Shown piece after piece: positions 16,989 to 53,387 of a stretch of 63,120 nucleotides of DNA (its first letter is position 1; each line of letters begins with the position of its first letter). Origin of the DNA: a virus (lineage: Duplodnaviria > Caudoviricetes); IMG/VR virus record IMGVR_UViG_3300045741_000433, positions 1 through 63,120 of that record, one strand, 5' to 3'. The notes below the pieces were generated by a model. That model was not told the origin of the DNA. It searched no databases and was given only the letters and a program-made list of their open reading frames with translations. Position numbers and translations under genes: made by a program.

Positions 16989-17390
16989 AATAGTTTCTCC
17001 GTAATTTATTTACTAAAAAATTAGAGGCGTACCTCTTTAGACAACAGATATCATAATCATAATTTATATCGTGTCAAGCGAGGGCTTAAATTAAAACATT
17101 AATAATCATCGTCCAAATAATGCGGTTGCTTACCAGCAGGTTGCCAGCCCTGTAACCACATGTTATAAAACGCTTCAATTTTTACATATTTTTCGCCTTC
17201 TATTAGATAATTAACTGAACCATAAAACGAGCCCGTTTTATGATCACAACTAATGGTTGCGCAAATAACATTAGCAATAAGCGTCTTTTTCTTTTTAATT
17301 TTTAATTGAATAGGCTTATTCGTAACAATAGCCGCAGCCAATGCATATGTATCATCCATTGCCATAATAATCCTCAATAAAATAAAAATA

Positions 17391-17881
17391 GAGAAAGCAG
17401 TCAATAAGCGGAGTCCTGTCTATAAAACGAGGCAATCATTAATCTACGCAATTAGTTACCTAATTGCTTTAGCGCTAACCCGTAAGCATCGACCACACAA
17501 GTCTCAATCGCTTACTATTTAGCTTGCAGCACCCAGGGTTTGCCTTGCCATATTTGTCTCCAAACATGCGGTAAGCTCTTACCTCACCATTTCACCCTTA
17601 CCATATAAATTGAGTCTCTTGCCGTTCCGATCGTCTTGGCGAGTTGATAACAACGGGATGCCTATACCCTATACGTTATCTTGCGTTTTTTCCCGAGACC
17701 CAACAGGGGGATAAAATGGGCCTACCCCTTACCACGCTGGTCTTTAATTTATATGGCGGTTTCTTTTCTGTTGCACTTTCCGTCACCTCACGGTGCCTGG
17801 ACGTTATCCAGTGGGTTGTGTTTTGCTGCTCCGACTTTCCTCGATAAGTTTCCTTATCGCGATTACCTAGACTACTTTCTC
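17391..17881 (-). ncRNA. rnpB: RNase P RNA (bacterial type A) with expanded P12
   Basis: GAGGAAAGTCGGAG, GGAAAGTGCAACAGAAA, GGGTGAAA, GGCAAACCC, ACAGGACTCCGCTTAT; P1 end pairing; compensatory changes in P4. Confidence 0.93.
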
Positions 17882-23395: not shown

Positions 23396-23626
23396 TCATT
23401 TAATTCCTGGGCCTATTGGACCCGTAACGCCAATTACAACATCAATTGAAACATAATTTGGAAAATATGGAAGTCCGCATGGAACAAATGTAAATCCACT
23501 CATCCAAGGAAATCCTGGAGAACCTTGAACCCCTTGAGGCCCTGTAGGCCCAGAATAATTGGCACTATATACTACATTTCTTTTAGAAATTAAAATTATA
23601 TCATACATTGCAGTATCATATAACAT
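23396..23626 (-). CDS. Small protein with collagen-like GXY stretch
   Basis: GPTGPQGVQGSPG. Confidence 0.45.
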   Translation of the reverse strand: MLYDTAMYDIILISKRNVVYSANYSGPTGPQGVQGSPGFPWMSGFTFVPCGLPYFPNYVSIDVVIGVTGPIGPGIK

Positions 23627-23752
23627 GGTCTTCCGAGCTGGGCTCACACCAACACCTTCTTTCGTAGAGAAAGCACTCTAATACGAATACTAATTAATAC
23701 AAATTTTAACGCGTCAATTTATATTAAGTTTTCTTCTTTAAGTTATCGGAAG
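23626..23752 (-). ncRNA. tRNA-like RNA with about 55-nt D-loop insertion, possible CUA anticodon
   Basis: CTTCCGA/TCGGAAG-A-CCA, T arm GTTGG/CCAGC, inserted AT-rich hairpin. Confidence 0.6.
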
Positions 23753-24012
23753 ATAATTAGCTTATAAAATTTCCTAATAATAATTGCTTTTTGGCTTCTT
23801 TAATTATTTCAATCTGATTCTTACGCAAAATATTATATTCTTTTATTTCATTTTGACTGTTAATGATTATTGGATGATTCATTTGGTGTCTCGCTCTAGA
23901 ATTACACTAGATTCTCTGTCTATGCCAGTTTCTTTGTTTGCAGCCGCGGAAGACAGCCAGCAGAAATTATTTCGATTTGCGAGACATATATTATTATTTG
24001 ATTATATATAAT

Positions 24013-24399
24013 ATGATTAAACTAATTAAACATGTTTATAATATATTAAGAAATTCAACTAGAGATATTGGAGTTACATCTAAACGATCTTCTCAATGGC
24101 CTAAAGTAGAAAAAGATTTTCTATCTAAAAATCCTTGTTGTGCTATTTGCAATAGCAAATCAAACCTTAATGTCCATCACAAGAAACCATTTCATCTACA
24201 TCCTGAATTAGAATTAGATGAATCTAATCTAATTACTCTTTGCATGGGAAATAAAGAATGTCACCTTATGATTGGTCATGGAGACAATTTTAAAGCTTAT
24301 AACCCAAACATTACGGCTGATGCTCAAACCCTTCATAAAGATATTTCTAAATTTGCTGAGGTGGCAGCAACAGCCAAGGAAAATAGAAAATTCGAATAA
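24013..24399 (+). CDS. HNH endonuclease
   Basis: RSSQWPKV, CAIC, VHHKKPFH, NLITLC. Confidence 0.85.
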   Translation: MIKLIKHVYNILRNSTRDIGVTSKRSSQWPKVEKDFLSKNPCCAICNSKSNLNVHHKKPFHLHPELELDESNLITLCMGNKECHLMIGHGDNFKAYNPNITADAQTLHKDISKFAEVAATAKENRKFE

Positions 24400-24495
24400 C
24401 CTCGCAAGTATCAGCCTAACATTCATATAATGACGGTTTGCTGGTCGTAGCCATATAACGATCTTTTTGTGCACATAGCGCAATACTTGAAAGTT

Positions 24496-24572
24496 TGGTG
24501 GACACAGACGGGGATTGAACTCGCTTAAGGCAGTTTGCAGAACTGCTACATTCCCATTAATGCTACTGGCCC
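24496..24572 (-). tRNA. tRNA-Ala(TGC), irregular
   Basis: G3-U70, loop TCTGCAA. Confidence 0.75.
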
Positions 24573-24575
24573 ATT

Positions 24576-24651
24576 TGGTGGATCATTCGGGATTCGAACC
24601 CGATGTCCCCTATCACTAAAGTATAGGGGCCAGCCTTTTCATCAAAGACCC
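24576..24651 (-). ncRNA. D-armless Ala-identity tRNA-like RNA (resembles the tmRNA tRNA-like domain)
   Basis: G3-U70, A73-CCA, canonical T arm, unpaired D region, long helix in place of anticodon arm. Confidence 0.65.
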
Positions 24652-24762
24652 AACTAGGAACAGTTTTTTCGAATTAAGTCATGTTCCAGGACTTAAAGGG
24701 CAGATTAGCCCAAGTTTGTACTGAGCGTGAAATTAAATGATTAACATTTAACCAGTCAGTTA

Positions 24763-24836
24763 TGGTGAACCTCCAGGGAATCGAACCCTGATTTTCTCGC
24801 AGCCAGCGAAACGTTATACCGTTTAACTAGAAGCCC
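24763..24836 (-). tRNA. tRNA-Ala(GGC)
   Basis: Loop CTGGCTG, G3-U70. Confidence 0.8.
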
Positions 24837-24860
24837 ATCTATATGATTTTATTGCAGATT

Positions 24861-24934
24861 TTGTGGACCGTCAGAGAATCGAACTCTGAACTCCTGCGTG
24901 CAAGGCAAGCGTTATACCGTTTAACTAACAGCCC
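24861..24934 (-). tRNA. tRNA-Ala(TGC)
   Basis: CTTGC-CTTGCAC-GCAGG. Confidence 0.9.
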
Positions 24935-24967
24935 ATATAATTTATATCAACATATTCGTAGAATATA

Positions 24968-25052
24968 TGGTGGGTCCAGAGAGAATCGAACTCATCAATG
25001 TCTTTCGACGTCCGGTTAAAAGCCGGGTACCTTACCATTAGGTTATAGACCC
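24968..25052 (-). tRNA. tRNA-Lys(TTT) with extra variable-arm hairpin
   Basis: Loop CTTTTAA; GTC-GAAA-GAC in the V region. Confidence 0.85.
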
Positions 25053-25256
25053 ATATACATTATTTTCTTTTACATTCAGGACAAACATCTATACTACGTG
25101 AATACCCAGTCGATCCGCAATCATCAATTTCTTTTACTATCCATCCATTTGGAACTGGACCATTGCTAATATTATTATTCATACATTTAACTCTTTTAAC
25201 AAAAGCTTCCTTACTACATATATCGCAAACTAATTTGTAAGATAATAATTGAACTC

Positions 25257-25547
25257 TCATTTTTTGTCCTGCTTAATTAAAAGCTCTACTTCTGGACTAC
25301 AAGGAACATTAGTATATATAGTAGCAGTACCTATAGGATATTCACTAACATAACTTTGTACAAAACATAATCCGGTTCTCTGATCTTTTATATACTGAAT
25401 GTTATTTGCACTCTCTTGAATTGCCTTTTGTTGATTACGTTCAGCCCGCTCACAACCAACAAGCATTAATAAACAAATTAATATCAGTTTCATTATTATT
25501 CTTTCGAATTGAAATGGTGAGCAGCTTGCTCTACTTCTTTGGTACAA
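25257..25547 (-). CDS. Small lipoprotein, paralog of adjacent gene
   Basis: LVGC lipobox; YIKDQRTGLCF...NVPC. Confidence 0.6.
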   Translation of the reverse strand: MYQRSRASCSPFQFERIIMKLILICLLMLVGCERAERNQQKAIQESANNIQYIKDQRTGLCFVQSYVSEYPIGTATIYTNVPCSPEVELLIKQDKK

Positions 25548-25783
25548 GGAACATTAGCTAATGTTGCTGCCACTGTTTTTACCCAAACTCCAGCAAAACA
25601 AAGATTAGTTGTATCATCTTTAAAATATTTCAAATCTTGAGACAGATATTGTGTTTCGCTTAATTTAGGCGGCAAATCGCAACTACAAATTAAAAGACTA
25701 ATTATCATCACCTTGAGCAAACGCATGTTTAATTTTTCCTTGTAATGAAACGAAAACAAATCCTTTAAAAGAATCTCCATCAT
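25496..25783 (-). CDS. Small lipoprotein, paralog (true start likely downstream)
   Basis: YFKDDTTNLCF...NVPC. Confidence 0.55.
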   Translation of the reverse strand: MMEILLKDLFSFHYKEKLNMRLLKVMIISLLICSCDLPPKLSETQYLSQDLKYFKDDTTNLCFAGVWVKTVAATLANVPCTKEVEQAAHHFNSKE

Positions 25784-26643
25784 CTATGGCATCATTAATA
25801 AATTCAAACGAAAGCAAATTACTATTGACATCGCTTAATCGAAGTGAATTTAATAACCAATGCTCTGGTTTATTAGCTTCTGATTTTAAGAAGTCAGCCA
25901 TCGAATCATTATCTTCCAACAATTTGGAATAGTCTCCAAGAGGAGCAATATTAACAAGCTGTAAAGTTAATTCTTCTGCATTTGAAATTACATATTTCGA
26001 AAGAGCTTCTTGCATTTCAGGAACTGAAACTCCAAGCTTTTCTTTTATTTTAGAATCAATTTCCTCAACGGAATCAGTTTCTTTTAAATCGAAATCTTCA
26101 ATTTTCTCAATCATGCTAATATTATAAACATTGAAATTGGGGGCGCAAGGGGCCGTTAATTTTTATCTTTCAATAATTGTAGAAACTTTCTCAGTAGTAG
26201 TTGTAAAAGTTAATCTCATTAATCCGTTTGTATTTTTACGGATATGCTCTAAATATTCTTGAGCTTCTTTTTTATCAGTGAAAGTTTTCTCAAAACAATC
26301 AGCATCACTTCGACCACAAGGATCATAATTACTTGTGCTGTATTGCCAATAAGACACTTTATATTTTTTAATAGTATATTCTTTCATGATACACCTTTAA
26401 TGAAAAGCCCATAATTTTGAATCTAATTTCGATTTAATTAAATGTAAAATATCATCTATGCAATCGCGACAATAATATTCAGCTCTAGAGCCACCTAAAT
26501 TAATCATAACTACTGTTGTATCAACTTTTATATACCAAACATCACCCAATATATTTACCATACTTTGAGGGTTTCTTTTACAATTAATATTACTACAATG
26601 AACTCCTGTACGATCTAATTTAAAAAGTTCAACATTAATCATA

Positions 26644-26720
26644 TGGTGGGTCCACTGGGATTCGAACCCAGACTGGTCAGATTAAAAGTCTGATGTGCTA
26701 ACCGTTAACACTATAGACCC
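26644..26720 (-). tRNA. tRNA-Lys(TTT)
   Basis: TCAGA-CTTTTAA-TCTGA. Confidence 0.93.
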
Positions 26721-26917
26721 ATTATAATTTTGGAAAACAACAATCATAATGCATAAATGGAGCAAATGCTGCTCTACTTGCACAAAGATCAGCTTCTGAT
26801 AAAGGAAGCTTACAACCGTAACAATTAAATTTAGTTAAACGCTCTCCAAATGGTTTATGCTTTTCTTCATCAAGAATTTCCCATTCATATACTTCTTCTG
26901 CATATATGTTTTTCATT

Positions 26918-26995
26918 TGGTGGGTTTGGAGGGACTTGAACCCATCAATTATGTCTCCTTAAGAGGGAGCTACCATGCCATTAGGTGACAAACCC
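26918..26995 (-). tRNA. tRNA-Lys(CTT)
   Basis: Loop CTCTTAA. Confidence 0.85.
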
Positions 26996-27684
26996 ATTTT
27001 AATATGCTTTCTTACAGCATTATCACTTACCCCTAAACGTCTTCCACATTCTACGTATCCGAATTTTTGAGTCATATCAATCAATTCATCTATAGCTGGC
27101 CACTTAATTTTAGTGGGTGTATTTTTTCTTTTGCACGATACACACCAAATAGAAGATCTATGTATTTCTATTTTACAAACAATACATTGATTAGGTTTTC
27201 TTTTTTCTGATTTTCTATTTTTTCCACAAAAATTATCAGTTAATGAATGACAGTTAGGGCAAAGAAATCTTAAATTTTCCAATCTATTATCAGTTTTAAT
27301 TCCATTAATATGATCCATTTGCAAATTTAATTTTTTACCAATCCATTCGGATATTCCGCAATCTTTACCATGACATTTATATTCAAGTAAATTGTCTTTT
27401 ATTATTAATTTTTTAACTAATTTGTAATCATTATAAGAGCCATTAGCTACAAATAATTTTTCTTTAGACTTATTTTTTAATAAATTTTTAGAACGATTTG
27501 ACAAATCTTTTTTAGAGCTAAAATGTGATGTATCTAACTTAAGGCGAGATATATGAAATTTTATACTTTTATAAGATCCTCCCCTTACTAAACCTAAAGA
27601 ATCTATAACATCTGATAAACATTTAGATTTACCAACTATATTTATCAAATCATTATCTGACCAAGTGCGTTTTATTCGAACCAT
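26959..27684 (-). CDS. HNH endonuclease reading into tRNA-Lys(CTT)
   Basis: QMDHINGIKTDNRLENLRFLCPNCH; stop TAA is in the anticodon loop. Confidence 0.88.
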   Translation of the reverse strand: MVRIKRTWSDNDLINIVGKSKCLSDVIDSLGLVRGGSYKSIKFHISRLKLDTSHFSSKKDLSNRSKNLLKNKSKEKLFVANGSYNDYKLVKKLIIKDNLLEYKCHGKDCGISEWIGKKLNLQMDHINGIKTDNRLENLRFLCPNCHSLTDNFCGKNRKSEKRKPNQCIVCKIEIHRSSIWCVSCKRKNTPTKIKWPAIDELIDMTQKFGYVECGRRLGVSDNAVRKHIKMGLSPNGMVAPS

Positions 27685-27707
27685 AACTATTATATATCAC
27701 AATATTG

Positions 27708-28319
27708 CTAGGGTTCGATATTTTTATATTCTTGATTTACAAAATCTTTGCTTAAAGTTTTCATTGGATTTAACATTGAACGTGGATAAATAAATTGTTC
27801 ATGAGGTTGAAAATTATTTCCCATAGCTCCCCAATTTTTAATTTCTCTAAATTGATTTATCATAAAGTAATGGCGCCTTAACAAATCTGTCATGCCCCAA
27901 CCAATTAACCAAATAGTTTTATCTTTAAAAGACAAATTTTTTGAGGTTGTTAATACCATTGGCAACTCGCCTTGATCTCTATCTTGAATCATTAACCCAT
28001 CAGTTGGGTCGCCTATCCATCTTACATTTACTTGGCCTACATCTGGGTAGTTATGAAACTCACCAGGCTTTGTTACTCTGGCTTTTTTTCCTGCCCATTG
28101 ATGAATGGCATACTCTGAACGTTTTGAAAATATTGCATACCTTAAACTGGCTTCAGGATCTTTATTAATAGCTCTGTCATTTAGATTTCGTTCTTTAGAC
28201 TGCTTCTCTTGAAGCATCCCCATCTCTGTGGCTAACTTATCCAATTCATTATCTAAAACAACTGGAATCCAATCATCTTCGGTAGTTACTAAACATTTTG
28301 ATAATACTACTTGCCCCAT
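27708..28319 (-). CDS. Hypothetical protein
   Basis: 203-aa ORF. Confidence 0.6.
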   Translation of the reverse strand: MGQVVLSKCLVTTEDDWIPVVLDNELDKLATEMGMLQEKQSKERNLNDRAINKDPEASLRYAIFSKRSEYAIHQWAGKKARVTKPGEFHNYPDVGQVNVRWIGDPTDGLMIQDRDQGELPMVLTTSKNLSFKDKTIWLIGWGMTDLLRRHYFMINQFREIKNWGAMGNNFQPHEQFIYPRSMLNPMKTLSKDFVNQEYKNIEP

Positions 28320-28765
28320 TGTTTACCTTACATAAAAACCCATAACTTGGGATTTAAAATCTTTTTTATATCTTCATAAATAATTTCTATACAATCTCTA
28401 CAATAATAAGAAGTATTATATCCAGCGGCACTATCCATTGTAATTGCTACACAAGTTGTATCAGTTTTAATTCTACCTTTATCGGTAATAAATTCTTGCT
28501 TTTTTCTGCAACTTAAATTTCTGCATTTGGCTCGGCCGCTTGCTTTGATTAATTTAATCTTCATGCCGACTATATAACGCTATAATGGTTTGATTAAAGT
28601 TAGATAATAATCCGATTGATAATCTTCCATGCCGGAATCAAATTTAATATAATATGGAAAATAAAGATTTTCTTTTATAGAAATAATCTTTCCTTTACCA
28701 AATAAAATATGTTTAACTTTATCGCCTACTTTAAATTTTAAATTATTTTTTGTCATGACTTTATA

Positions 28766-28842
28766 TGGTGGTGCCTATTGGTTCTGCCCCAATTTCGTCT
28801 GCTCTTCAGGCAGCGGTCTTTAGCTAAAAATACGAAAGCACC
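28766..28842 (-). tRNA. tRNA-Phe(GAA)
   Basis: Loop CTGAAGA; atypical T loop. Confidence 0.78.
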
Positions 28843-28845
28843 ACA

Positions 28846-28953
28846 TGGTCCCTCAAGATAGATTCGAACTACCGTCCTCCCGCTTTCGGCGAGCGCTCTA
28901 CCGAAGTAATCTTTTATGTACACTAATTGGATTACTAGCTGAGCTATTGAGAG
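28846..28953 (-). ncRNA. tRNA-like RNA with D-loop hairpin carrying a GATTAC motif; shrunken GAA anticodon loop
   Basis: Complete acceptor and T arms, CCA; AGTAATC...GATTACT hairpin inside the D loop. Confidence 0.7.
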
Positions 28954-29138
28954 ATTTATTATTCAATATCGTATCCGCACAATTTATTACATTGTTCAAT
29001 ACAAAATTCATTATCACAAGTCAGATATCTTTTTAATACTGGCTCATTACATATCATACAATTAAAATCTTCATTTGGATCTATATTGGAAACAAATAAA
29101 GGTCTAATTAATTTAAAGAAATAGTGTTTTAGTTTCAT

Positions 29139-29214
29139 TGGAATCATTATGGGACTTGCACCACATATCTCCCAGCTATCACGCCAGGCACTCTGCTTGT
29201 TGAGCTAAACGATT
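29139..29214 (-). tRNA. Degenerate tRNA-Ile(GAT)-like
   Basis: D arm TAGCTCAA...GAGT, irregular anticodon and T arms. Confidence 0.55.
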
Positions 29215-29215
29215 T

Positions 29216-29372
29216 TTCCACAGGTTCCAACGATGTGGGCACGCTTGAGGATTTACTACCTGATCTCAAAATCAGGTCCTCGTCACAGTTTCCGGCCATG
29301 TGAGCAGGTAAGGAGAGCGACTCCTCATTGTATACTTATGGATACTTCCTAGCGGGAAGGCCATATGTATTA
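29216..29372. ncRNA. Unassigned multi-hairpin RNA
   Basis: GC-richer non-coding stretch with several inverted repeats. Confidence 0.45.
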
Positions 29373-29375
29373 GTA

Positions 29376-29450
29376 TGGTCGGGCATAATGGTAACGCTCC
29401 ATTTTCTATACTTTATCAGAGTATCGTCTTAACTTCTGGACGAATGCCCG
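29376..29450 (-). tRNA. tRNA-Ile(GAT)
   Basis: ATACT-CTGATAA-AGTAT. Confidence 0.85.
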
Positions 29451-29842
29451 ATTATGATGAGCAAGCTCACCATACCTTTTTATAACTGACGCAAAATTTC
29501 TTTTGCTTCATCTGCTACGTTAGGTCGAAAAAGCAATGCAGCGACCGAAGTTTCCTCTGGCTTCCACTGCCCTTCTAAACCGTAACATGAACAATGTGAT
29601 CCGTTGACTTCGTACAATTTACCTTCCTTTCGAAAAATAACGTGTGCCCAACCTTCGTAATCACCTGTGCTATAACATGCATACAATATTTCTACTCCTT
29701 CCAATTTCTCGGAATCAATAGCAAAACTGTTCATCATGTCTTCTTGTGTATTTAAATTATCAAAATATATTTTCATAGTATCTCCCTTTCGTTACAAGAA
29801 ATATCCATACTATTAAATATAATTTTAATTATTCAATCACAA

Positions 29843-29918
29843 TGGTGGTGCCTAGTAGAATCGAACTACTCACATTCTGCTTATCAGACAGACATTCTAA
29901 CCACTGAATTAAGGCACC
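29843..29918 (-). tRNA. tRNA-Ile(GAT)
   Basis: Loop CTGATAA, CCA. Confidence 0.92.
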
Positions 29919-30235
29919 GTTATCCTATCAAATCTTCTTTCATATCTTCTTCGCATTGATGCATGTAATCTAGAACTGCACATGCTGCATGTCTCCAAGC
30001 ATCTTGTCCAACTTTTCCTAGGTCTTCCCATTTAGGGAGATTCTTTCCATTATAATTAATGTAATCAACTTTTTCAGCATATTTATCATATGCTATTCTT
30101 CCAATATCAATTGCCATATTACTTTCCTTACATCAAATCTATATCTTCATCTTCTGCAAGTGGATTCATTAACTCTTGAGCTTTCATAAGTAAAAAGGGT
30201 AGAGACGCGTATCATACGTTATATATCAGTATGCC

Positions 30236-30700
30236 ATGAGAAAAAGAACATATACAGAACAAGAATTTATTGATGCTGTTAAAAATAGTTTTTCTATAGC
30301 TCAAGTATTACAAAAATTAAATTTAACTCCAGCTGGTGGATCATATAAAACTTTTTATAACACTGTTAAAAATTTACAATTAGATACCTCACATTTTTTA
30401 GGACAAGGACATCTAAAAGATAAGAATCATAATTGGACACCACCACGACCATTATCACAAATATTGGTGGAAAATAGTGAGCATGCCAGCAGTTATACTT
30501 TAAAAAATCGTTTAGTAAAAGAAGGATTACTTACTTATTTTTGTGAAGAATGTGGGCTTAATGAATGGAATGGTAAAAAATTATCATTACACCTTGATCA
30601 TATTAACGGAGATCATTCCGATAACAGATTACAAAATTTAAGAATAATGTGCCCAAATTGCCATTCACAAACAGAAACTTATTGTAAAAAGAAGTTGTAG
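30236..30700 (+). CDS. HNH endonuclease
   Basis: LHLDHINGDHSDNRLQNLRIMCPNCH; paralog of 26959-27684. Confidence 0.9.
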   Translation: MRKRTYTEQEFIDAVKNSFSIAQVLQKLNLTPAGGSYKTFYNTVKNLQLDTSHFLGQGHLKDKNHNWTPPRPLSQILVENSEHASSYTLKNRLVKEGLLTYFCEECGLNEWNGKKLSLHLDHINGDHSDNRLQNLRIMCPNCHSQTETYCKKKL

Positions 30701-30780
30701 TCGTAGAGGGACTCGAACCCCCAAGCCCTTACGAGCGAGCAGTTTTAAGCAGCTTGTGTATACCATTCCACCATACGACC
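30695..30780 (-). tRNA. tRNA-Leu(TAA)
   Basis: Loop CTTAAAA, long V arm. Confidence 0.85.
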
Positions 30781-30787
30781 ATAATTT

Positions 30788-30933
30788 AGAAACAACAAAA
30801 ATATAAAGTCTATGTCTTTCGACACTAATGCGTTTGCCATTCCGCCATCCAAACCATAAGCTTGGAGTGAGACTCGAACTCACATATCTGTTAAGATGTT
30901 AGTTTTAATGTAAACCTTATTGCATTTGTTTCT
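30788..30933 (-). ncRNA. YrlA-like Y RNA with permuted tRNA domain
   Basis: Order is T arm, loop-closed acceptor stem, D arm, inside a terminal stem bearing AATGC...TTTACATT. Confidence 0.8.
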
Positions 30934-30968
30934 TGGTTATTTATTTAATATTTAAACTAAACAAATAA

Positions 30969-31505
30969 TTAAATATCTAAATCATTTTCTCTTTGACCAT
31001 GTAATTTGGCATGATCATTTTTATTCATAACTTCTAAATTTTCTAATCTATTGTCCCAGCGTTTACCATTTTTATGATGAACTATTTCTTCTTTATTTAA
31101 TCTTCTTCCTATTATTTGTTCTGCTACAATGCGATGTTCATAAACATATCCCCAAGTATTAGCTTCTGTATGCATTGGAACATATATTCTAACATATCCT
31201 AATGTCTTATCTATTTTTCTAGAAGAGTTTTCCAAGCAAGATGGAATATCTAAAAACTTTTTACTTACCCTACTATTATAAAAAGATATACATTTTTTAG
31301 AACAAAACTTTATTTCATGTCCAATGTTTTTAGAATATTGAAATTGCCAACCACATTCTATACAATTAACTGTAATAAATATATTTTTACGCTTTTCGTT
31401 AAGCCTACGAGATTTTGCTAATTGATAACAATTTCTAGAACAATATTTTGTATTACAAATATTTGTAACAAAAATTACATTACAACAAACACAATTGATA
31501 TTCAT
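30969..31505 (-). CDS. HNH endonuclease
   Basis: YVYEHR...VHHKNGKRWDNRLENL. Confidence 0.88.
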   Translation of the reverse strand: MNINCVCCNVIFVTNICNTKYCSRNCYQLAKSRRLNEKRKNIFITVNCIECGWQFQYSKNIGHEIKFCSKKCISFYNSRVSKKFLDIPSCLENSSRKIDKTLGYVRIYVPMHTEANTWGYVYEHRIVAEQIIGRRLNKEEIVHHKNGKRWDNRLENLEVMNKNDHAKLHGQRENDLDI

Positions 31506-31506
31506 A

Positions 31507-31591
31507 TGGTGGGAGCATGGGGAATCGAACCCCTGGCATGGAGACCCGAGAGTTTATAAGACTCTCTGCAAGAACCACTCGCGCTGCTCCC
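31507..31591 (-). tRNA. tRNA-Ile(TAT)
   Basis: AGAGT-CTTATAA-ACTCT, enlarged V region. Confidence 0.82.
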
Positions 31592-31727
31592 ATATCTATT
31601 TAACTATATATTATTTGGTCTTTAAACCGGATTCATAGTCCTAATATATTGTTTATCTAACTCGGTTAATTAAGGCGGTTAGAACGGTTCATAGTTTTTA
31701 TTCTATTAATAGATGACCGTAATATCA

Positions 31728-31784
31728 GCGGCAACAAAGATTGATGAGATTTTTTTGTTGAAATGTAATCACATCGGCATTCGC
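31728..31784 (-). ncRNA. Minimal Y-like RNA (motif only)
   Basis: AATGCCGATGTGATTACATT...ATCTCATC...TTTGT. Confidence 0.65.
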
Positions 31785-31787
31785 CTA

Positions 31788-31863
31788 TGGCGCTTCTGAT
31801 GGGGCTCGAACCCACCTGGGCTTGCTTGACAAACAAGTGAACTCACCCGAGTTCTACAGAAGC
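31788..31863 (-). tRNA. tRNA-Asp(GTC)
   Basis: Loop TTGTCAA, G73. Confidence 0.85.
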
Positions 31864-32343
31864 GTATCTGTTTCTATTAGCACAAACTAAACTACAATAC
31901 TTATGTCCTCTTTTAAGATACTTGGCTTTGAAATAAAATTCTTTCTTACAAAATAAACAGCTTGCTTTTATTTTGGGCTTAGTATTCTTACCCCTCATAC
32001 TCTGACTTATTTTATCTTTTACTTCCTGTGGAGTAATGAATCCGTATCTACCATCCCCACCGAGAGTTCCATTTGTTAATTCGCAACCTATACTTTTGTA
32101 ATAGGCAATTAACTCTATTTCTTTTTCTAGAGCTTCAACTTCTGAAATAGCTTCTTCTAAAACAATAATCTCTGGTTTAAAATTATCTTTCAAAAGACTT
32201 CTTAACCATGCAGATTTATGAGTAGCTCTCTTTAGATTTGAAGGCAATAAATGTTCTTTATATCTTTCCATATAATCTGAACTATAACCTATATATCTTA
32301 ATTCTTTAGAGATTGGATGTAGTAAACCATAAACATAAAACAT
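31843..32343 (-). CDS. GIY-YIG endonuclease between two Asp tRNAs
   Basis: FYVYGL...RYIGYS; ATG 1 nt after the upstream CCA. Confidence 0.85.
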   Translation of the reverse strand: MFYVYGLLHPISKELRYIGYSSDYMERYKEHLLPSNLKRATHKSAWLRSLLKDNFKPEIIVLEEAISEVEALEKEIELIAYYKSIGCELTNGTLGGDGRYGFITPQEVKDKISQSMRGKNTKPKIKASCLFCKKEFYFKAKYLKRGHKYCSLVCANRNRYASVELG

Positions 32344-32344
32344 C

Positions 32345-32419
32345 TGGCGGCACCGAGGGGAATCGAACCCCCATTGGAGCATTGACAATGCTCTGTCCTA
32401 ACCATTGAACGACGGCACC
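32345..32419 (-). tRNA. tRNA-Asp(GTC)
   Basis: GAGCA-TTGTCAA-TGCTC. Confidence 0.92.
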
Positions 32420-32426
32420 ATTATAC

Positions 32427-32858
32427 TTATGTTAAATCTTGACTAAAATCAAGAAGATGATCAAAGGGTCTTACTAATCTTCCTATTGTCAAATGATACC
32501 AAGGCTTGAAAACAAATCCAAGTTCTTGACGTATCGCCGACAAATCTTCTGAATAAACATCGACCCAAGCATGCTTACCATTTTCAAATCTTATTAAATG
32601 ACTGTAATGAAATTTAACTTCATAACCTTCATACTTGCCCCAATGTTCTGGTTTAGGAGGAGCTTCACCTTTCAATACTGAAACATGAGTTCCCCATAAC
32701 CCTTTATCATTAGGATGAAGTTCCATACCATTTCTTTTCAAAAGCCAAGAATAGTATGCAGATATATCATTATCGCAAGTTAATAAACCCCAATGAGGAA
32801 CAAACTTTTTGCTTCCTTTGCCAGGATCATATTGAAATATTCCAGTTGATGTAAACAT
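32427..32858 (-). CDS. Putative 2H phosphoesterase
   Basis: Two H-x-S/T motifs: THVSV and YHLTI. Confidence 0.65.
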   Translation of the reverse strand: MFTSTGIFQYDPGKGSKKFVPHWGLLTCDNDISAYYSWLLKRNGMELHPNDKGLWGTHVSVLKGEAPPKPEHWGKYEGYEVKFHYSHLIRFENGKHAWVDVYSEDLSAIRQELGFVFKPWYHLTIGRLVRPFDHLLDFSQDLT

Positions 32859-32876
32859 GACTTACTCATTTTAATT

Positions 32877-32949
32877 TGGCTCTCCCCCAAGGACTTGAAC
32901 CTTAACTCTCGACCTCAAATGGTCGCCGTGCTAATTACACTAGAGAAGA
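32877..32949 (-). tRNA. Gln-like tRNA with abnormal anticodon loop
   Basis: U1, G73-CCA, loop ATTTGA. Confidence 0.6.
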
Positions 32950-32956
32950 ATATTTT

Positions 32957-33154
32957 GATGACTAAAGTAGTAAAGATAATAATTACTAGATTAACCCAAC
33001 TAGAAATCATATGGGACATGAACGAACTGTTGCATGCTTTTGTACTTGTAGTTTGCTCCACTAACAAGTTTTTAGAATATCTGGCTAAAACACCCTGCCT
33101 GATACAGTAGTTAGGTGCGCTCGGTATTGCATTGTAATCTTTACAGCATTCATC
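32957..33154 (-). ncRNA. Y-like RNA with about 150-nt non-tRNA cargo
   Basis: GATG-AATGCTGTAAAGATTACAAT...ATCTTTAC...TTTAGT-CATC. Confidence 0.65.
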
Positions 33155-33218
33155 GGATACAACTTTTCTTCGCTCAAGAAACCATTTCTATGTTGCAATG
33201 CGGCCGTTGTGTGACCTT

Positions 33219-33296
33219 TAGTTCTTGCCACAGGATTTGAACCCATTCCTTCCAGCCTTCAATTGACTTGATGTGCGCGCCATACACTGTGCAGAA
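33219..33296 (-). pseudogene. Degenerate tRNA (TTG-like)
   Basis: T loop GTTCAAATC, weak stems. Confidence 0.45.
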
Positions 33297-33298
33297 TC

Positions 33299-33390
33299 TG
33301 GTCCCCTTCCCAAGACTTTCACTTGGATCACTCCGTTTAGACAGGAGCGTCATACAGGTTCGTTATGGCCTGTTATTAAACCAGAAGGAG
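33299..33390 (-). ncRNA. tRNA-like RNA with D-loop hairpin and CUA-containing loop
   Basis: CTCCTTC/GAAGGGG-A-CCA; ACAGG...CCTGT insert; loop TGTCTAAAC. Confidence 0.65.
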
Positions 33391-33519
33391 ATAAATTTTG
33401 ATTGTGCTAAAACCGTCACTGAATGTACTTATCAGATCTTTTTTTAGTCCAGGAGTAAAGGTCCAGATGCTCTTACATTACACAATCAGGATCCTCATTT
33501 CGAACTGAGATTATCCTTT

Positions 33520-33651
33520 TGGCTCTAAGACTAGGACTCGAACCTAGAAAGTGTTTTACCACCGGGCGGTTATCTTTGGAACATTCCGAATCGAACGGAC
33601 ATTTACCTTTAGTTCCCACAGCCGCCTGCCTTGCCATTAGGCTATCTTAGA
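33520..33651 (-). tRNA. tRNA-Asn(GTT) interrupted by a 45-nt nested mini-tRNA
   Basis: GGCGG-CTGT[33573-33617]TAA-CCGCC; G73-CCA. Confidence 0.8.
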
Positions 33652-34252: not shown

Positions 34253-34327
34253 TGGCGCCGCCAACTGGACTTTCACCAATATCTCCGCCCGTTAAAAGGG
34301 GCGTTTTAATATTTAAACTAAAGCGGC
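34253..34327 (-). tRNA. tRNA with ambiguous 8-nt loop (CTTTTAAC)
   Basis: Cloverleaf, G73-CCA. Confidence 0.6.
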
Positions 34328-34632: not shown

Positions 34633-34709
34633 TGGCAGGTGCCGAAGGGGTTACACCTTCACTTTGACAGTCTTTGTGACTGTTGCCTCTATATTTGGGC
34701 TAGACACCT
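34633..34709 (-). tRNA. Atypical tRNA (loop CACAAAG, Trp-like acceptor)
   Basis: AGG...CCT-G-CCA; A at position 33. Confidence 0.55.
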
Positions 34710-34732: not shown

Positions 34733-34808
34733 TGGTCAGGGCTACTGAAATTGCATCAGTACCGCTCGGCTCCAGACCGACTATGCTGCTGTTAAACACC
34801 AAACCCTG
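34733..34808 (-). tRNA. tRNA-Pro(TGG), atypical
   Basis: C1-G72, A73, loop TCTGGAG. Confidence 0.7.
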
Positions 34809-35754: not shown

Positions 35755-35837
35755 TGGTGGGGGAGCCAGGAATTAAACCTGGGACCTCAACGTTTTCCTT
35801 ACGGTATCGTTGCGCTCTTTCTCTGAGCTACTCCCCC
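35755..35837 (-). ncRNA. tRNA-like RNA with elongated anticodon arm
   Basis: Same D arm as 34134-34211; CAACG-ATA-CC-GTAA-GG-AAAA-CGTTG. Confidence 0.7.
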
Positions 35838-37182: not shown

Positions 37183-37476
37183 CTATTTCTTAAAAATTGA
37201 GTCTAACACAGATATAACCTTTTCGCAAAATTCTTTGCCATAAGAATCTGAAATAGATTCTTCTAATTTTGAAATAATTCTATCGTGTTTCATGCCAGCA
37301 TTTTTAGCACTTTTATATAAATCAATCCAATCTGGTACATAACCTTTTTCTATAAATAAACTAAATATTACATCAAGCGGTAATCCATGAGTTTCATAGA
37401 ATTTATATATTCCAGACATAACAGGCTTGTCGCCAGAAACTCCAGATTGAATTAAAATATCTTTATGTAATTTCAT
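37183..37476 (-). CDS. Stand-alone AlaRS helical-domain-like protein
   Basis: YKFYETHGLPLD resembles the AlaRS F-x-LYDTYGFP-x-D motif. Confidence 0.55.
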   Translation of the reverse strand: MKLHKDILIQSGVSGDKPVMSGIYKFYETHGLPLDVIFSLFIEKGYVPDWIDLYKSAKNAGMKHDRIISKLEESISDSYGKEFCEKVISVLDSIFKK

Positions 37477-37708
37477 TTAATTTTAACTTTTCTGCTCTGG
37501 ATAATTGTTTTATTTTATATTCTAATTTTAATGCGGCTGATTTGTTTTCTACTTCAAAATATTTTAATAATGAAACCGGCCTTCTACTTTTGGTATAACG
37601 AGCCCCTTTGCCATCATTATGAGCTTTAATTCTTTTATCTAAATTATTAGTAATACCAGTATAAAGTGAATCATCTCTCGAACAACGAACAATATATACG
37701 TACCACAT
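37463..37708 (-). CDS. UPF0213 GIY-YIG nuclease
   Basis: YVYIVRC...LYTGIT...HNDGKGARYT. Confidence 0.9.
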   Translation of the reverse strand: MWYVYIVRCSRDDSLYTGITNNLDKRIKAHNDGKGARYTKSRRPVSLLKYFEVENKSAALKLEYKIKQLSRAEKLKLNEIT

Positions 37709-40149: not shown

Positions 40150-40168
40150 AATAAACTTTCTTTTTAAT

Positions 40169-40235
40169 TGGGCTCCCACATTGAACTTGCATCAATGACC
40201 CTAGTGAATAAATAGGGTGCCCTTCGGCTAGGAGC
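40169..40235 (-). ncRNA. Compact tRNA-like RNA directly 3' of the Ro60 gene
   Basis: GCTCC/GGAGC-CCA, D-, anticodon- and T-like hairpins. Confidence 0.55.
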
Positions 40236-40246
40236 TTTGAATCTTT

Positions 40247-41821
40247 TTACAGATCAATTGACTCAATGGTTTTGACCCACAAGTCTTTGTTGTTACCAAG
40301 CTCAACGAATCTTGCGATTACGTCAAATACTTGGTCACTGAATCCACCAACATTTAAAATGTCATCGCGATCATGTGCTTGAGTAGTTCCGTTAGGAGTT
40401 ACATCAATGCACACAAGCTTTGCATTTGGATTACGGGCTTTGAACTTATTCCATTCATTCATGGTAGCAGTGCTACGATAAATGTTTTTATCAACCCAAG
40501 ACTCATTATCAGACACATAAATAACAAGGTCACCCTTGGCATTCTTACGATTGACATGTGCCAATGCTTCTGAGCAATTCGTTCCTCCACCACCAAAGTT
40601 AGCTAGAGTTCTAGCATTAGTCATGATTGAATCCATTGGATTCAAACAGTGACCATGAACTTGAGTATCGAATGGAATTACTTCAGTATCAACATTTTTG
40701 CGCATTACTGCTGCTGCAACTAAGGCTGCAACATCAATGCAACGCATCTTTGAAGAAACCGTACCACGGTGACCCGTGACAGGAGAACTCATAGATCCAG
40801 AAGTATCAACCATAACATAAACCTTACCATCGAATTCAGGAACATTCTCTAAAGCAACCTCAGCGGCTTTTTGCAAAGCAACTGAAACCTTAGCAGGAAT
40901 AGTAGATTCGATGTTTAAGAATGCGGTGAATAATTGATATGGGAAAACTTTCGCTCTCTTGATCTGCTCTTCATCTTGCAACTTATCTACAACAATAGAA
41001 GTCAATTTAGGATCTGCGAATACGCCATGACGTTCGAACGTATTAAGGTTCATTCTAGTCTGGGTCCAAGTTGCATTTTCAGCAATTTGTTTCCAGTGAT
41101 TATCAGTCAAAGGTAATGCAGTAAGCATTTGAAAAGGAACATCAGGAATTTCTCCCTTCATGTCCTTCTTGAAAGCTTCGAAATCTTTTGCTAACTTGCA
41201 AAGATCTTTCTTGTTATACTTTTTGTCAAGTAAGTATCCAAACAAAGCAGAACGCTTTTTGTTGTTTGGCTTTGGATGAACAAGCTTAATAATGTCTTGT
41301 AATGACGGATCATTACCAACATCTGCCTTGAACAATTGTTCATCAGTTAAGTTCTCAAGATATTCTTGAATCAATTTCTTTGGACGAGTTCCCAAAGACT
41401 TACGGCCAGTTGCGCCGGAACGAATAATCTGAACGAAGTTTCTCAACATCTTTGGATTATCAATAACACGAGGAAAAATTTTAGACAAAAGTTCAGAATC
41501 TTTGCCAGCAACAACTGCTGTCAATACAGCTGGCATATCCTTCATTAAACCTTTTTCACGAGCATAAACCGCAAGTTTCGCAACAAACTCAACTGGAAGC
41601 TTGTTAGCTAATTCAAGAGTTCTTTTTAATTGTTCCTTGTCAGAAACATAATAGGTTCCATTAAAGCAACCAGTCATAGCTAATTGAGCAAGGCCAGCCT
41701 TATCGCTTAAAGAATAGGCGTTTCCACCAGCATTATTTACAGTGTCAGTTGGCTTGGTAACCTTATTGAACTTAGTAGAAATGAAAGACTTTTTCGAATT
41801 AAATAAATTTTTAGATGACAT
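40247..41821 (-). CDS. rsr: Ro60/Rsr TROVE-vWA RNA-binding protein
   Basis: NNAGGNAY, MNLNTFERHG, FPYQL, DTSGSM, GGGTNC, VSDNESW, GGFSD. Confidence 0.92.
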   Translation of the reverse strand: MSSKNLFNSKKSFISTKFNKVTKPTDTVNNAGGNAYSLSDKAGLAQLAMTGCFNGTYYVSDKEQLKRTLELANKLPVEFVAKLAVYAREKGLMKDMPAVLTAVVAGKDSELLSKIFPRVIDNPKMLRNFVQIIRSGATGRKSLGTRPKKLIQEYLENLTDEQLFKADVGNDPSLQDIIKLVHPKPNNKKRSALFGYLLDKKYNKKDLCKLAKDFEAFKKDMKGEIPDVPFQMLTALPLTDNHWKQIAENATWTQTRMNLNTFERHGVFADPKLTSIVVDKLQDEEQIKRAKVFPYQLFTAFLNIESTIPAKVSVALQKAAEVALENVPEFDGKVYVMVDTSGSMSSPVTGHRGTVSSKMRCIDVAALVAAAVMRKNVDTEVIPFDTQVHGHCLNPMDSIMTNARTLANFGGGGTNCSEALAHVNRKNAKGDLVIYVSDNESWVDKNIYRSTATMNEWNKFKARNPNAKLVCIDVTPNGTTQAHDRDDILNVGGFSDQVFDVIARFVELGNNKDLWVKTIESIDL

Positions 41822-53264: not shown

Positions 53265-53387
53265 TGGTGGAGCGGGTAGGATTCGAACCTACAATTCGTA
53301 TCGGTTACAATCGATTTAGAATAGGTGGATTCAGAGTGATTGTACCACTCTTCGGCCTCCCGCGTACTCCAATTCCGCCACCGCTCC
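53265..53387 (-). ncRNA. Interrupted Tyr-like tRNA (123 nt)
   Basis: GGAGCGG/CCGCTCC-A-CCA, intact D and T arms, about 40 extra nt. Confidence 0.7.

What the first reader, a model, noticed from the sequence alone, without database searches (positions are those of the whole stretch)
23626..33390. A class of CCA-ended tRNA-like RNAs with hairpins grafted into the D loop
Seen at 23626-23752, 28846-28953 and 33299-33390. Acceptor stem, T arm and CCA are intact, a 20-55 nt hairpin sits in the D loop, and the anticodon loop is non-standard. The three inserts are unrelated in sequence but occupy the same site. Inference: these are tRNA scaffolds carrying aptamer-like modules, or D-loop introns, and not random decay.
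Basis: partly seen in the sequence, partly recalled or inferred. Interest (0 to 1): 0.7.

Follow-up and report, generated by a model that had tools for sequence, protein, structure and literature searches.

The report
Hairpin-bearing tRNA-like genes, jumbo phage
Three genes in the tRNA cluster of a giant bacteriophage encode tRNA-shaped RNAs with an extra hairpin in the D region; two belong to conserved families and probably no longer read codons, which makes them an unusual variant of phage small RNAs, not introns and not mere debris.

Summary
All three sites have a 7-bp acceptor stem, an adjacent 5-bp T stem with a 7-nt loop, a discriminator A and an encoded CCA. This geometry occurs 26 times on that strand against 0.1 expected. 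The window is a 63-kb piece of a ~480-kb jumbo phage with its own RNase P RNA, Ro60 and about 30 tRNA genes.

The three are not one class.
- 28846-28953 keeps a complete tRNA core and looks Phe-derived. It has a 32-nt hairpin in the variable part of the D loop and a stunted anticodon arm. Hairpin and core are conserved in one other lineage, with 3 compensatory stem pairs and an identical 9-nt loop core.
- 33299-33390 belongs to a covarying four-lineage family of odd 74-78-nt tRNA-like RNAs. Only the window copy carries the 18-nt D-loop hairpin.
- 23626-23752 is an orphan with an Arg(ACG)-type anticodon loop and a 61-nt D-loop insert.

No bulge-helix-bulge motif brackets any insert. No splicing endonuclease was found in the window or in a complete relative. 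Best reading: tRNA-derived, tRNA-like-processed, mostly non-decoding small RNAs with D-loop expansion hairpins. No RNA data were available, so expression and function are untested.

The parts
28846..28953 (-). tRNA-like gene 2 (108 nt). It has a full tRNA core: U8, A14, G15, G18-G19, A21, C48, G53-C61 and T loop UUCGAAU. The acceptor is CUCUCAA/UUGAGGG with A73 and CCA. The anticodon arm is reduced to 5 bp plus a 5-nt loop.
   Evidence: Full-length homologs are L002:5656-5759 and L003:155-258 at 74% identity.
28905..28936 (-). D-loop hairpin of gene 2: a 7-bp stem and an 18-nt loop whose core is UAGUGUACA. It is inserted between D-loop positions 17 and 18.
   Evidence: Compared with L002 in the loop-proximal register, the 6 comparable pairs are 2 same, 1 one-sided change, 3 changed on both sides and 0 broken. 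The 9-nt loop core is identical.
33299..33390 (-). tRNA-like gene 3 (92 nt). Acceptor CUCCUUC/GAAGGGG with A73 and CCA; T arm CCAAG-UGAAAGU-CUUGG; central hairpin with a 9-nt loop. It is a member of a family of non-canonical tRNA-like RNAs.
   Evidence: Homologs are L001:6064-6137, L002:291-368 and L007:3835-3894. Of 16 pairs, 98.3% of cells are paired and 9 pairs show double changes; 0 of 500 shuffles reach this.
33355..33372 (-). D-loop hairpin of gene 3 (CAGG-10 nt-CCUG). It is absent from the 74-78-nt homologs.
   Evidence: Alignment A10 places a 17-nt gap here in all three homologs. About 230 nt around it (33290-33519) are window-specific in a 5-lineage alignment.
23626..23752 (-). tRNA-like gene 1 (127 nt). 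Acceptor CUUCCGA/UCGGAAG with A73 and CCA; T arm GUUGG-UGUGAGC-CCAGC; 7-bp stem with the 7-nt loop CUACGAA; no variable loop.
   Evidence: z = -3.19. The loop is identical to that of the relative's tRNA-Arg(ACG). No homolog was found.
23679..23739 (-). 61-nt AU-rich insert of gene 1, with an imperfect long hairpin, between the D-stem-like ACUU (23740-23743) and GAGU (23675-23678).
   Evidence: Folds. There is no repeat of it in the window.
28766..28842 (-). Neighbouring 77-nt Phe(GAA)-type tRNA-like gene, 3 nt downstream of gene 2, as in a tandem tRNA array. Its T loop is fully replaced (GGCAGAA) relative to its homologs, while the stems covary.
17389..17879 (-). Phage-encoded bacterial type A RNase P RNA, the likely 5'-processing enzyme for the island's transcripts (context).
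   Evidence: Rfam RF00010, 270.8 bits, model positions 1-367 of 367. It is conserved in L001.

Best explanation
The three sites are real genes derived from tRNA genes. They sit in the tRNA island of a jumbo phage, and in each a hairpin has been added to the D loop. The hairpins are expansion segments, not introns.

Inferred maturation: the RNAs are cut out of long island transcripts like the neighbouring tRNAs. RNase P makes the 5' end (the phage carries its own RNase P RNA), and trimming to the encoded CCA makes the 3' end. They then persist as stable tRNA-like small RNAs.

Shown from sequence: two of them (28846-28953 and 33299-33390) cannot present an anticodon, so they do not decode.

Gene 2 keeps every nucleotide needed for the L-shaped tRNA core. 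Its hairpin leaves the D loop at the naturally length-variable spot, between positions 17 and 18. There it would project from the outer corner of the molecule without disturbing the fold (inferred from standard tRNA architecture). The conserved loop would then be a recognition site for a protein or RNA partner, with the acceptor end offered to tRNA-binding enzymes (inferred).

Gene 3 is a member of a conserved family with a variant T loop (G at position 55) and no canonical D/T-loop contact. Its hairpin is a recent, lineage-specific addition.

Gene 1 is an orphan with an Arg(ACG)-type anticodon loop. It may still decode, or it may be on its way out.
For: Geometry far above chance: 26 hits on the gene strand against 0.1 expected.

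Island context:
- 26 ARAGORN tRNAs, 27 Rfam tRNA hits and one RNase P RNA hit in the window.
- Gene 2 lies 3 nt from the next tRNA-like gene.
- CCA is encoded in 23 of 26 tRNAs.

Gene 2:
- The homolog in L002/L003 has an identical acceptor and D stem.
- A14, R15, G18-G19, A21 and C48 are kept.
- The hairpin stem shows 3 double changes and no broken pair, and the loop core is identical.
- The anticodon arm differs in length (15 against 10 nt) and in sequence.
- Its 3' half is most like tRNA-Phe(GAA) of L007 and L047.

Gene 3: family covariation gives 9 of 16 pairs with double changes and 98.3% of cells paired. 0 of 500 shuffles reach this, and slid controls give 36-58% paired.

Variant T loops of the form UGNRA recur in 5 of the 7 non-canonical T loops among the 26 hits. 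They also occur in relatives' tRNAs that have normal 7-nt anticodon loops, so this loop is a clade feature and not a sign of decay.

Against introns:
- Bulge-helix-bulge-like matches occur at chance frequency and none brackets an insert.
- PF01974 is absent from the window and from the complete relative G001, and RtcB is absent from G001.
Against: - There is no expression evidence. No RNA run holds the stretch, so transcription, processing and stability are all inferred.
- The conservation of gene 2's hairpin rests on only two independent sequences, because L002 and L003 are identical.
- The hairpins of genes 1 and 3 are unique to the window, so selection on the inserts themselves is untested.
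- Gene 1 has no homolog in any of about 20 related loci, nor in a whole 480-kb relative.
- The island is full of homing endonuclease genes and tRNA fragments. In the window lineage two other tRNA-like genes have fully replaced T loops. Turnover and decay therefore do occur here.
- The Rfam tRNA model scores are below threshold or nil.
- No partner or function is shown.
Confidence: 0.6

Rival explanations
1. They are decaying tRNA pseudogenes or rearrangement debris. Insertions and deletions have hit redundant tRNA copies in a fast-turning island rich in homing endonucleases, and the stems are still paired only because the damage is recent.
For: - Genes 1 and 3 carry inserts found in no relative.
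- Gene 1 is an orphan.
- tRNA fragments and patchworks occur in relatives (L007:3601-3894) and just upstream of gene 3.
- At least 7 HNH or GIY-YIG genes lie in or near the island.
- The Rfam tRNA scores are nil for genes 1 and 3.
Against: - Gene 2 with its hairpin is kept across lineages whose neighbouring proteins are about 70-76% identical, with compensatory changes.
- The gene 3 family covaries strongly.
- All 24 acceptor and T-stem positions pair in each of the three, whereas loops differ.
- The non-canonical T loops follow one pattern (UGNRA) instead of varying at random.
Confidence: 0.2
2. They are processing punctuation, like plant-mitochondrial t-elements. What is selected is only the acceptor/T minihelix plus CCA, as an RNase P / 3'-end signal that separates the small mRNAs of the island. 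The rest of each RNA is free to drift and to take up hairpins.
For: - Acceptor and T stems are the parts kept, with covariation, while the D and anticodon regions vary.
- The genes are interleaved with small ORFs. Promoter-like matches are at chance level and no terminator-like site was listed next to the three genes.
- The phage has its own RNase P RNA.
- A similar 66-70-nt element fills the Ro60/ATP-grasp intergenic gap in three lineages.
- t-elements are a known precedent (PMC1920247; title and abstract seen in the search listing only).
Against: - Gene 2 also keeps all core tertiary nucleotides and a conserved hairpin loop, which a bare cleavage signal would not need.
- The ordinary tRNAs of the island already provide cleavage sites every few hundred bases.
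Confidence: 0.15
3. They are intron-bearing pre-tRNAs. The D-loop hairpins are removed by an unknown cut-and-rejoin activity to give working tRNAs.
For: - Relatives encode 4 RNA-ligase-family proteins, and a 2H phosphoesterase sits in the island.
- Other tRNAs of the clade carry conserved hairpins inside the anticodon loop, for example the Asn gene at 33520-33651, shared with L049.
- D-arm introns exist in archaea and nucleomorphs (PMC4090602, passages read).
Against: - No bulge-helix-bulge motif brackets any insert.
- No EndA was found in the window or the complete relative, and no RtcB in the relative.
- The inserts (18-61 nt) are far below group I intron size, and there are no intron hits in Rfam.
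- Without their hairpins, genes 2 and 3 would still lack a 7-nt anticodon loop.
- The insert-free homologs of gene 3 are equally non-canonical.
Confidence: 0.05

Closest known systems
Phage T4 species 1 RNA (rnaC), and rnaD, small stable RNAs of the T4 tRNA cluster
   Same: It is encoded in a phage tRNA cluster, directly after a tRNA and beside a homing endonuclease gene (segB). It is about 140 nt. In the T4 record rnaC has a canonical T arm (CCGGG-TTCGAAT-CCCGG) next to a terminal helix, with a large internal body. Its role is still unknown (PMC3014915, passage read; PMC9697503, passage read).
   Different: The rnaC terminal helix pairs at only 4-5 of 7 positions in my test, and no CCA is encoded. 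rnaD shows no T arm. I did not test sequence homology to the window's RNAs. That rnaC is RNase P-processed is recalled, not checked.
Non-canonical tRNA introns in D or T arms (Crenarchaeota, nucleomorphs, Cyanidioschyzon)
   Same: Short extra sequences at non-anticodon positions of tRNA genes, including the D arm (PMC4090602, passages read).
   Different: Those are defined by a bulge-helix-bulge motif and a splicing endonuclease. Neither is present here. The same review states that bacterial tRNA genes have no protein-spliced introns.
Plant mitochondrial t-elements
   Same: tRNA-like acceptor/T structures that are not tRNAs and are used for RNA end formation (PMC1920247; title and abstract seen in the search listing only).
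   Different: Organellar, not phage. Gene 2 here keeps a complete tRNA core and a conserved added hairpin, which is more than an end-formation signal needs.
Bacterial Y RNA YrlA with its tRNA-like domain, partner of Ro60
   Same: A Ro60 gene lies in the window. Jumbo phages with ROT/TROVE proteins and a 'tRNA-like partner' are noted in PMC7824862 (passage read).
   Different: In YrlA the RNA ends form the Ro60-binding helix and the tRNA-like part is internal (recalled). Here the ends form an acceptor stem with CCA. The three genes lie 6.9-16.6 kb from the Ro60 gene. There are no Y RNA hits in Rfam.
tmRNA tRNA-like domain
   Same: An acceptor stem, T arm and CCA without an anticodon arm.
   Different: There is no tmRNA call by ARAGORN. 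The only Rfam tmRNA matches are weak hits on ordinary tRNAs. There is no G3-U70 pair, no tag reading frame, and the extra sequence is in the D loop.

Membership tests
Canonical decoding tRNA (Rfam RF00005) | Score at or above the family's gathering cut-off (29 bits) | tested here: not met
   Gene 2 scores 17.1 bits (E = 0.23) on its 3' part only. Genes 1 and 3 give no match at E<=10 even when searched alone.
Canonical decoding tRNA (Rfam RF00005) | 7-nt anticodon loop on a 5-bp stem | tested here: not met
   Gene 2 has a 5-nt loop, and its homolog has a 4-nt loop on 3 bp. Gene 3 has a 9-nt loop, and family members have 6-10 nt. Gene 1 alone has a 7-nt loop (CUACGAA), but on a 7-bp stem without a variable loop.
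Canonical decoding tRNA (Rfam RF00005) | Conserved core nucleotides for the D/T-loop contact (G18-G19, U55-C56, U54-A58) | tested here: inconclusive
   Met in gene 2. Not met in genes 1 and 3, which have G at position 55 and no GG in the D region.
Endonuclease-spliced tRNA intron (archaeal/eukaryal type) | Bulge-helix-bulge motif at the exon-intron borders | tested here: not met
   A strict motif scan gave 1, 2 and 1 matches against 3.2, 1.2 and 0.9 expected in shuffles. None brackets the insert.
Endonuclease-spliced tRNA intron (archaeal/eukaryal type) | Splicing endonuclease (PF01974) available | tested here: not met
   0 matches in the window and 0 in the complete 480,838-bp relative. The control search hit 4 archaea. 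The host genome is unknown and was not tested.
Group I intron in a bacterial or phage tRNA gene | Ribozyme-sized insert with the group I fold, usually in the anticodon loop | tested here: not met
   The inserts are 18, 32 and 61 nt and lie in the D loop. No intron family appears among the Rfam matches. The size requirement is from general knowledge.
Y RNA / YrlA (Ro60 partner) | Match to the Rfam Y RNA models, and ends forming the Ro60-binding helix | tested here: not met
   No such hit. The ends form an acceptor stem plus CCA.
T4 rnaC-like stable RNA of phage tRNA clusters | Non-tRNA small RNA in a tRNA cluster, with a T arm adjacent to a terminal helix | tested here: met
   The architecture is shared. 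This is a likeness of kind. Homology and shared function were not tested.
tmRNA | Detected by ARAGORN or Rfam; alanine identity pair G3-U70; tag reading frame | tested here: not met
   No tmRNA. Pair 3-70 is C-G (gene 2), C-G (gene 3) and U-A (gene 1).

The most novel reading that the evidence does not exclude
This phage clade uses tRNA bodies as natural scaffolds. Hairpin modules are grafted into loops (the D loop here, the anticodon loop in other genes of the island) to make CCA-ended RNAs that are matured, and perhaps charged, like tRNAs. These RNAs would present a recognition hairpin for a non-translational job, for example docking or decoying a host or phage tRNA-binding factor such as the phage's own Ro60 and RNA-repair set.
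Probability: 0.2. Interest if true: 0.8.

Novelty: new variant of a known kind. Interest (0 to 1): 0.58.

Why it matters
Phage tRNA clusters are usually read as codon-usage helpers or as spares against host anticodon nucleases. Here a clade of ~480-kb phages has a near-complete tRNA set, its own RNase P RNA, CCA-adding-type enzymes, RNA ligases and Ro60. It also keeps, under structural selection, tRNA-shaped RNAs that cannot decode. One of them carries a conserved hairpin at the elbow of an otherwise perfect tRNA core.

If these RNAs are stable and bound by specific partners, they would be natural examples of tRNA-scaffolded RNA modules. They could also give a handle on the 50-year-old question of what the non-tRNA small RNAs of phage tRNA clusters (T4 species 1 and 2) are for. 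They are also a practical warning: standard tRNA finders miss them or mislabel them. ARAGORN calls the island's insert-bearing Asn gene 'His' and a Leu-type body 'Trp'.

Tried and rejected
- Expression: no RNA holder was listed for 23600-33599. Laying the contigs of the two DNA runs gave only short pieces, mostly under 90% alike, and no usable cover of the three sites.
- Closer relatives: no near match in the phage collection, and only homing-endonuclease matches in distant mode.
- IMG/VR pattern scans for gene 2 found nothing. Those for genes 1 and 3 found one chance match each, inside coding sequence, without a T arm or any tRNA.
- Both genome-contig scans found nothing. Two scans with the 203-aa neighbour protein in IMG/VR returned only L001.
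- BLAST of genes 1 and 3 against all loci and the whole relative genome gave only 11-21-nt chance-level matches. A 13-nt match in L010 lies in coding sequence.
- A 150-nt tRNA-like element at the place in L002 syntenic with gene 1 (11100-11249, ending CCU) did not align convincingly with gene 1.
- The conserved loop core of gene 2 and its complement do not recur in the window: 3 matches at up to 1 mismatch against 11.6 expected.
- The promoter scan is at chance level. Terminator-like sites are above chance, but many listed lie on tRNA T arms and none was listed next to the three genes.
- The small ORFs next to the genes gave no informative family.
- A tmRNA-like reading of the 102-nt RNA at 23884-23985 (a frame ending ...LA-stop) was dropped. 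The frame and stop are not kept in L001 (my reading).
- I made a general tRNA alignment (A6) as a basis for a covariance model but did not use it, because MAFFT split the anticodon stem.

Full report
**What the window is.**
- The window is the whole record, a 63,120-base virus contig estimated at 14% complete.
- Almost everything is on the minus strand.
- ARAGORN finds 26 tRNA genes. Rfam finds 27 tRNA matches and a full-length bacterial type A RNase P RNA at 17389-17879 (270.8 bits).
- The ORFs include a Ro60 homolog (TROVE plus vWA), NAD-related enzymes, RNase HII, LemA/TPM and many HNH or GIY-YIG homing endonucleases.
- A neighbouring 203-aa protein led to a syntenic island in a complete 480,838-bp IMG/VR phage (L001 = G001) and to 11 further metagenome loci. 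A 2H-phosphoesterase ORF led to six more IMG/VR loci.
- G001 has 56 Rfam and 57 ARAGORN tRNAs, 4 RNA-ligase-family genes and 2 CCA-adding-type genes. It has no RnpA, no EndA and no RtcB.
- The setting is therefore the tRNA island of a jumbo phage.

**The observation.**
- Read on the minus strand, the three sites each have a 7-bp acceptor stem, a directly adjacent 5-bp T stem with a 7-nt loop, A73 and CCA.
- A scan for exactly this geometry gives 26 hits on the minus strand and 1 on the plus strand, against a mean of 0.1 in 30 shuffles.
- All three candidates are among the 26. So are four other elements that ARAGORN does not call by default: 23884-23985, 28766-28842, 34633-34709 and 34733-34808.
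- Unconstrained folds give the same arms.
- CCA is the rule in this phage: 23 of 26 tRNAs in the window and 55 of 57 in G001 end in CCA.
- The Rfam tRNA model does not accept any of the three.

**Gene 2 (28846-28953).**
- After U8-A9 comes a normal D stem (GCUC/GAGC).
- The D loop reads AGCU, then a 7-bp hairpin with an 18-nt loop, then UCGGUA. A14, G15, G18-G19 and A21 are therefore in place, and the hairpin sits at the naturally variable spot before G18.
- C48, G53-C61 and the T loop UUCGAAU are also canonical.
- The anticodon arm has only 15 nt (5 bp plus CGAAA).
- L002 and L003 are identical to each other and come from the lineage closest by the neighbouring protein (76% identity). They hold a full-length homolog.
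- Between window and L002:
  - Acceptor and D stems are identical.
  - The T stem has one double change and one single change.
  - In the hairpin stem, the 6 comparable pairs are 2 same, 1 single change, 3 double changes and none broken.
  - The loop core UAGUGUACA is identical.
  - The anticodon arm shrinks further, to 3 bp plus a 4-nt loop.
- The 3' half is most like tRNA-Phe(GAA) of L007 and L047.
- I read this as a Phe-derived, non-decoding tRNA-like RNA whose added hairpin is under selection. The caveat is that only two independent sequences support it.
- It is absent from G001 and from the other loci that cover the syntenic place.

**Gene 3 (33299-33390).**
- BLAST found nothing. A local alignment of its 3' half against all tRNA-like elements gave one outlier, G001:42728-42801 (= L001:6064-6137), with score 43 against a null maximum of 29.
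- I aligned it with that element, L002:291-368 and the 3' part of L007:3835-3894. In that alignment the acceptor stem, central stem and T stem show 98.3% paired cells and 9 of 16 pairs with double changes. 0 of 500 shuffles reach this, and slid controls give 36-58% paired.
- This is a real family of 74-78-nt RNAs. They have a G55-type T loop (UGCAAGG, UGCAAGU or UGAAAGU), a 3-bp D stem and a central loop of 6-10 nt that cannot be a fixed anticodon loop.
- Only the window copy has the 18-nt hairpin in its D loop. About 230 nt around it are window-specific in a five-lineage alignment.

**Gene 1 (23626-23752).**
- The fold has a 4-bp D-like stem (ACUU/GAGU) around 61 AU-rich nt, a 7-bp stem with the loop CUACGAA, no variable loop and a T loop UGUGAGC (z = -3.19).
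- The loop is identical to that of G001's tRNA-Arg(ACG).
- The best local match of the 3' half is a tRNA(CUA) of G001, with score 38 against a null maximum of 33. This shows tRNA descent but not which tRNA.
- No homolog was found in any locus, in G001 or in IMG/VR.
- Whether this gene is functional is open.

**Introns?**
- Bulge-helix-bulge-like matches occur at chance frequency, and none brackets an insert.
- The splicing endonuclease family is absent from the window and from G001, and RtcB is absent from G001.
- The review PMC4090602 (passages read) names the motif as the hallmark of such introns. It lists D-arm positions in archaea and nucleomorphs only.
- For genes 2 and 3, excision would not yield an anticodon loop.
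- I therefore reject the intron reading for the D-loop hairpins (about 5%).
- The island does hold hairpins inside anticodon loops that are conserved between lineages (see the passing notes). For those, a cut-and-rejoin process cannot be excluded.

**Decay?** Evidence that turnover is real:
- Homing endonuclease genes are abundant in and near the island.
- tRNA fragments are present.
- Two window tRNA-like genes have T loops fully replaced relative to their homologs.

Evidence against decay:
- The non-canonical T loops follow one pattern, UGNRA, in 5 of 7 cases. This keeps U54 and A58 and changes the two bases that normally touch the D loop.
- The same pattern occurs in relatives' Pro-type tRNAs with normal anticodon loops.
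- Stems covary wherever homologs exist.

I give decay 20% overall, and more for gene 1.

**How it likely works.**
- Shown: the genes, their folds, their conservation (genes 2 and 3), the lack of an anticodon loop (genes 2 and 3) and the lack of splicing signals.
- Inferred: co-transcription with the island; 5' cutting by RNase P (host protein plus host or phage RNA); 3' maturation to the encoded CCA; stability; and a non-decoding role in which the acceptor end and, for gene 2, the projecting hairpin loop are the working surfaces.
- A pure punctuation role, like t-elements, is a partly overlapping rival (15%).

**Comparison with known things.**
- The nearest known kind is the pair of small stable RNAs of the T4 tRNA cluster.
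- In the T4 record, rnaC (139 nt) lies right after the tRNAs, beside segB. It has a canonical T arm next to an imperfect terminal helix, and no CCA. rnaD has no T arm.
- Their roles are still unknown (PMC3014915 and PMC9697503, passages read).
- My literature searches turned up no description of D-loop hairpin expansions in phage tRNA-like genes, nor of a phage-encoded RNase P RNA. These were keyword searches of an open-access library, and supplements were not seen. This is therefore weak evidence of novelty.

**Verdict.** The finding is real and more than chance, but it is not one class and these are not introns. It is a new variant of a known kind (non-tRNA small RNAs of phage tRNA clusters), with one well-supported conserved D-loop expansion. 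Interest 0.58.

Noticed in passing
window 17389-17879 (-): A full-length bacterial type A RNase P RNA (270.8 bits; 491 nt against a 367-position model, so it carries insertions) is encoded by the phage. It is conserved in L001. No RnpA protein gene was found in the complete relative G001. My keyword searches found no report of a phage-encoded RNase P RNA.
   Followed up: partly
window 40166-40236 (-), directly after the Ro60 stop codon (Ro60 ORF 40247-41821): A 66-70-nt tRNA-like element fills the Ro60/ATP-grasp intergenic gap. It has a terminal helix, one hairpin, a T arm with the loop UGCAAGU, and then CCA. It is conserved in G001 (about 37428-37497) and in L052:1792-1858, with a covarying terminal helix and an invariant GAUGCAAGUUCA. 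It is a candidate Ro60-associated RNA or a processing site. No Rfam Y RNA hit.
   Followed up: partly
window 33520-33651 (-): ARAGORN with introns calls this 'tRNA-His'. It is in fact a tRNA-Asn(GUU) with a long variable arm and a 45-nt hairpin inserted inside the anticodon (CUGU|...|UAA). The same insert (47 nt, with a compensatory C-G to U-A change) is in L049:694-827. The homologs in L001, L002, L007, L047 and L052 lack it.
   Followed up: partly
window 53265-53387 (-); G001:23903-24017: ARAGORN with introns calls this 'tRNA-Trp'. It is a Leu-type body (D arm, long variable arm) whose anticodon loop is replaced by a hairpin. It is conserved in G001 at 73% identity with a covarying inner hairpin. 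The G001 copy ends ACAA instead of ACCA.
   Followed up: partly
window 35755-35837 (-): An 83-nt tRNA-like gene with a 15-nt anticodon loop (AUACCGUAAGGAAAA). It is 93-99% identical in L001, L010, L046 and L047, which is far more conserved than its surroundings.
   Followed up: partly
window 23884-23985 (-): A 102-nt CCA-ended RNA with an acceptor stem, a T arm (loop UGUAAUU) and a long central arm but no D arm. Its interior is highly conserved in L001, L006 and L047. In the three-sequence alignment, 7 acceptor and T-stem pairs show double changes.
   Followed up: partly
window 24576-24651 (-); G001:50073-50149, 172924-172997, 173183-173255: A suppressor-type tRNA with anticodon UUA, 90% identical in L001. 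G001 also has two tRNAs with anticodon CUA, one with a Gln-like acceptor. ARAGORN calls no tRNA-Trp in G001. This may point to stop-codon reassignment, which I did not examine.
   Followed up: no
window 32427-32858 (-): A 143-aa ORF in the middle of the tRNA island with two H-x-T/S motifs (HVSV, HLTI), typical of 2H phosphoesterases. It is 65-76% identical in all related loci examined and matches phrog_12204. It probably belongs to an RNA-end repair set.
   Followed up: partly
window about 32950-33200 (-): A stretch of about 250 nt upstream of the tRNA-like gene at 32877-32949 is conserved in five lineages (window, L049, L052, L047, L001), with no convincing ORF. It may be another structured RNA.
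   Followed up: no
window 34733-34808, 34633-34709, 34253-34327 (-); L052:7607-7767; L001:5692-5768: A sub-population of tRNAs in the clade has a G55-type T loop (UGNRA) together with D loops that lack GG. Pro-type members have C instead of U at position 33, conserved across lineages. These tRNAs lack the usual D/T-loop contact, as many mitochondrial tRNAs do.
   Followed up: partly
window 28766-28842 and 29376-29450 (-): Two tRNA-like genes have T loops that differ at all or nearly all 7 positions from their homologs (GGCAGAA and AGCGUUA against UUCGAUU or UUCGACU), while the T and acceptor stems stay paired, partly through compensatory changes.
   Followed up: partly
L002:6693-6793 and L002:11100-11249: The closest relative has a tRNA-Lys(CUU) with an insert of about 27 nt in the anticodon loop. 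It also has a 150-nt tRNA-like element with a canonical T arm that ends CCU. Hairpin-bearing tRNA genes therefore recur across the clade at different sites.
   Followed up: no
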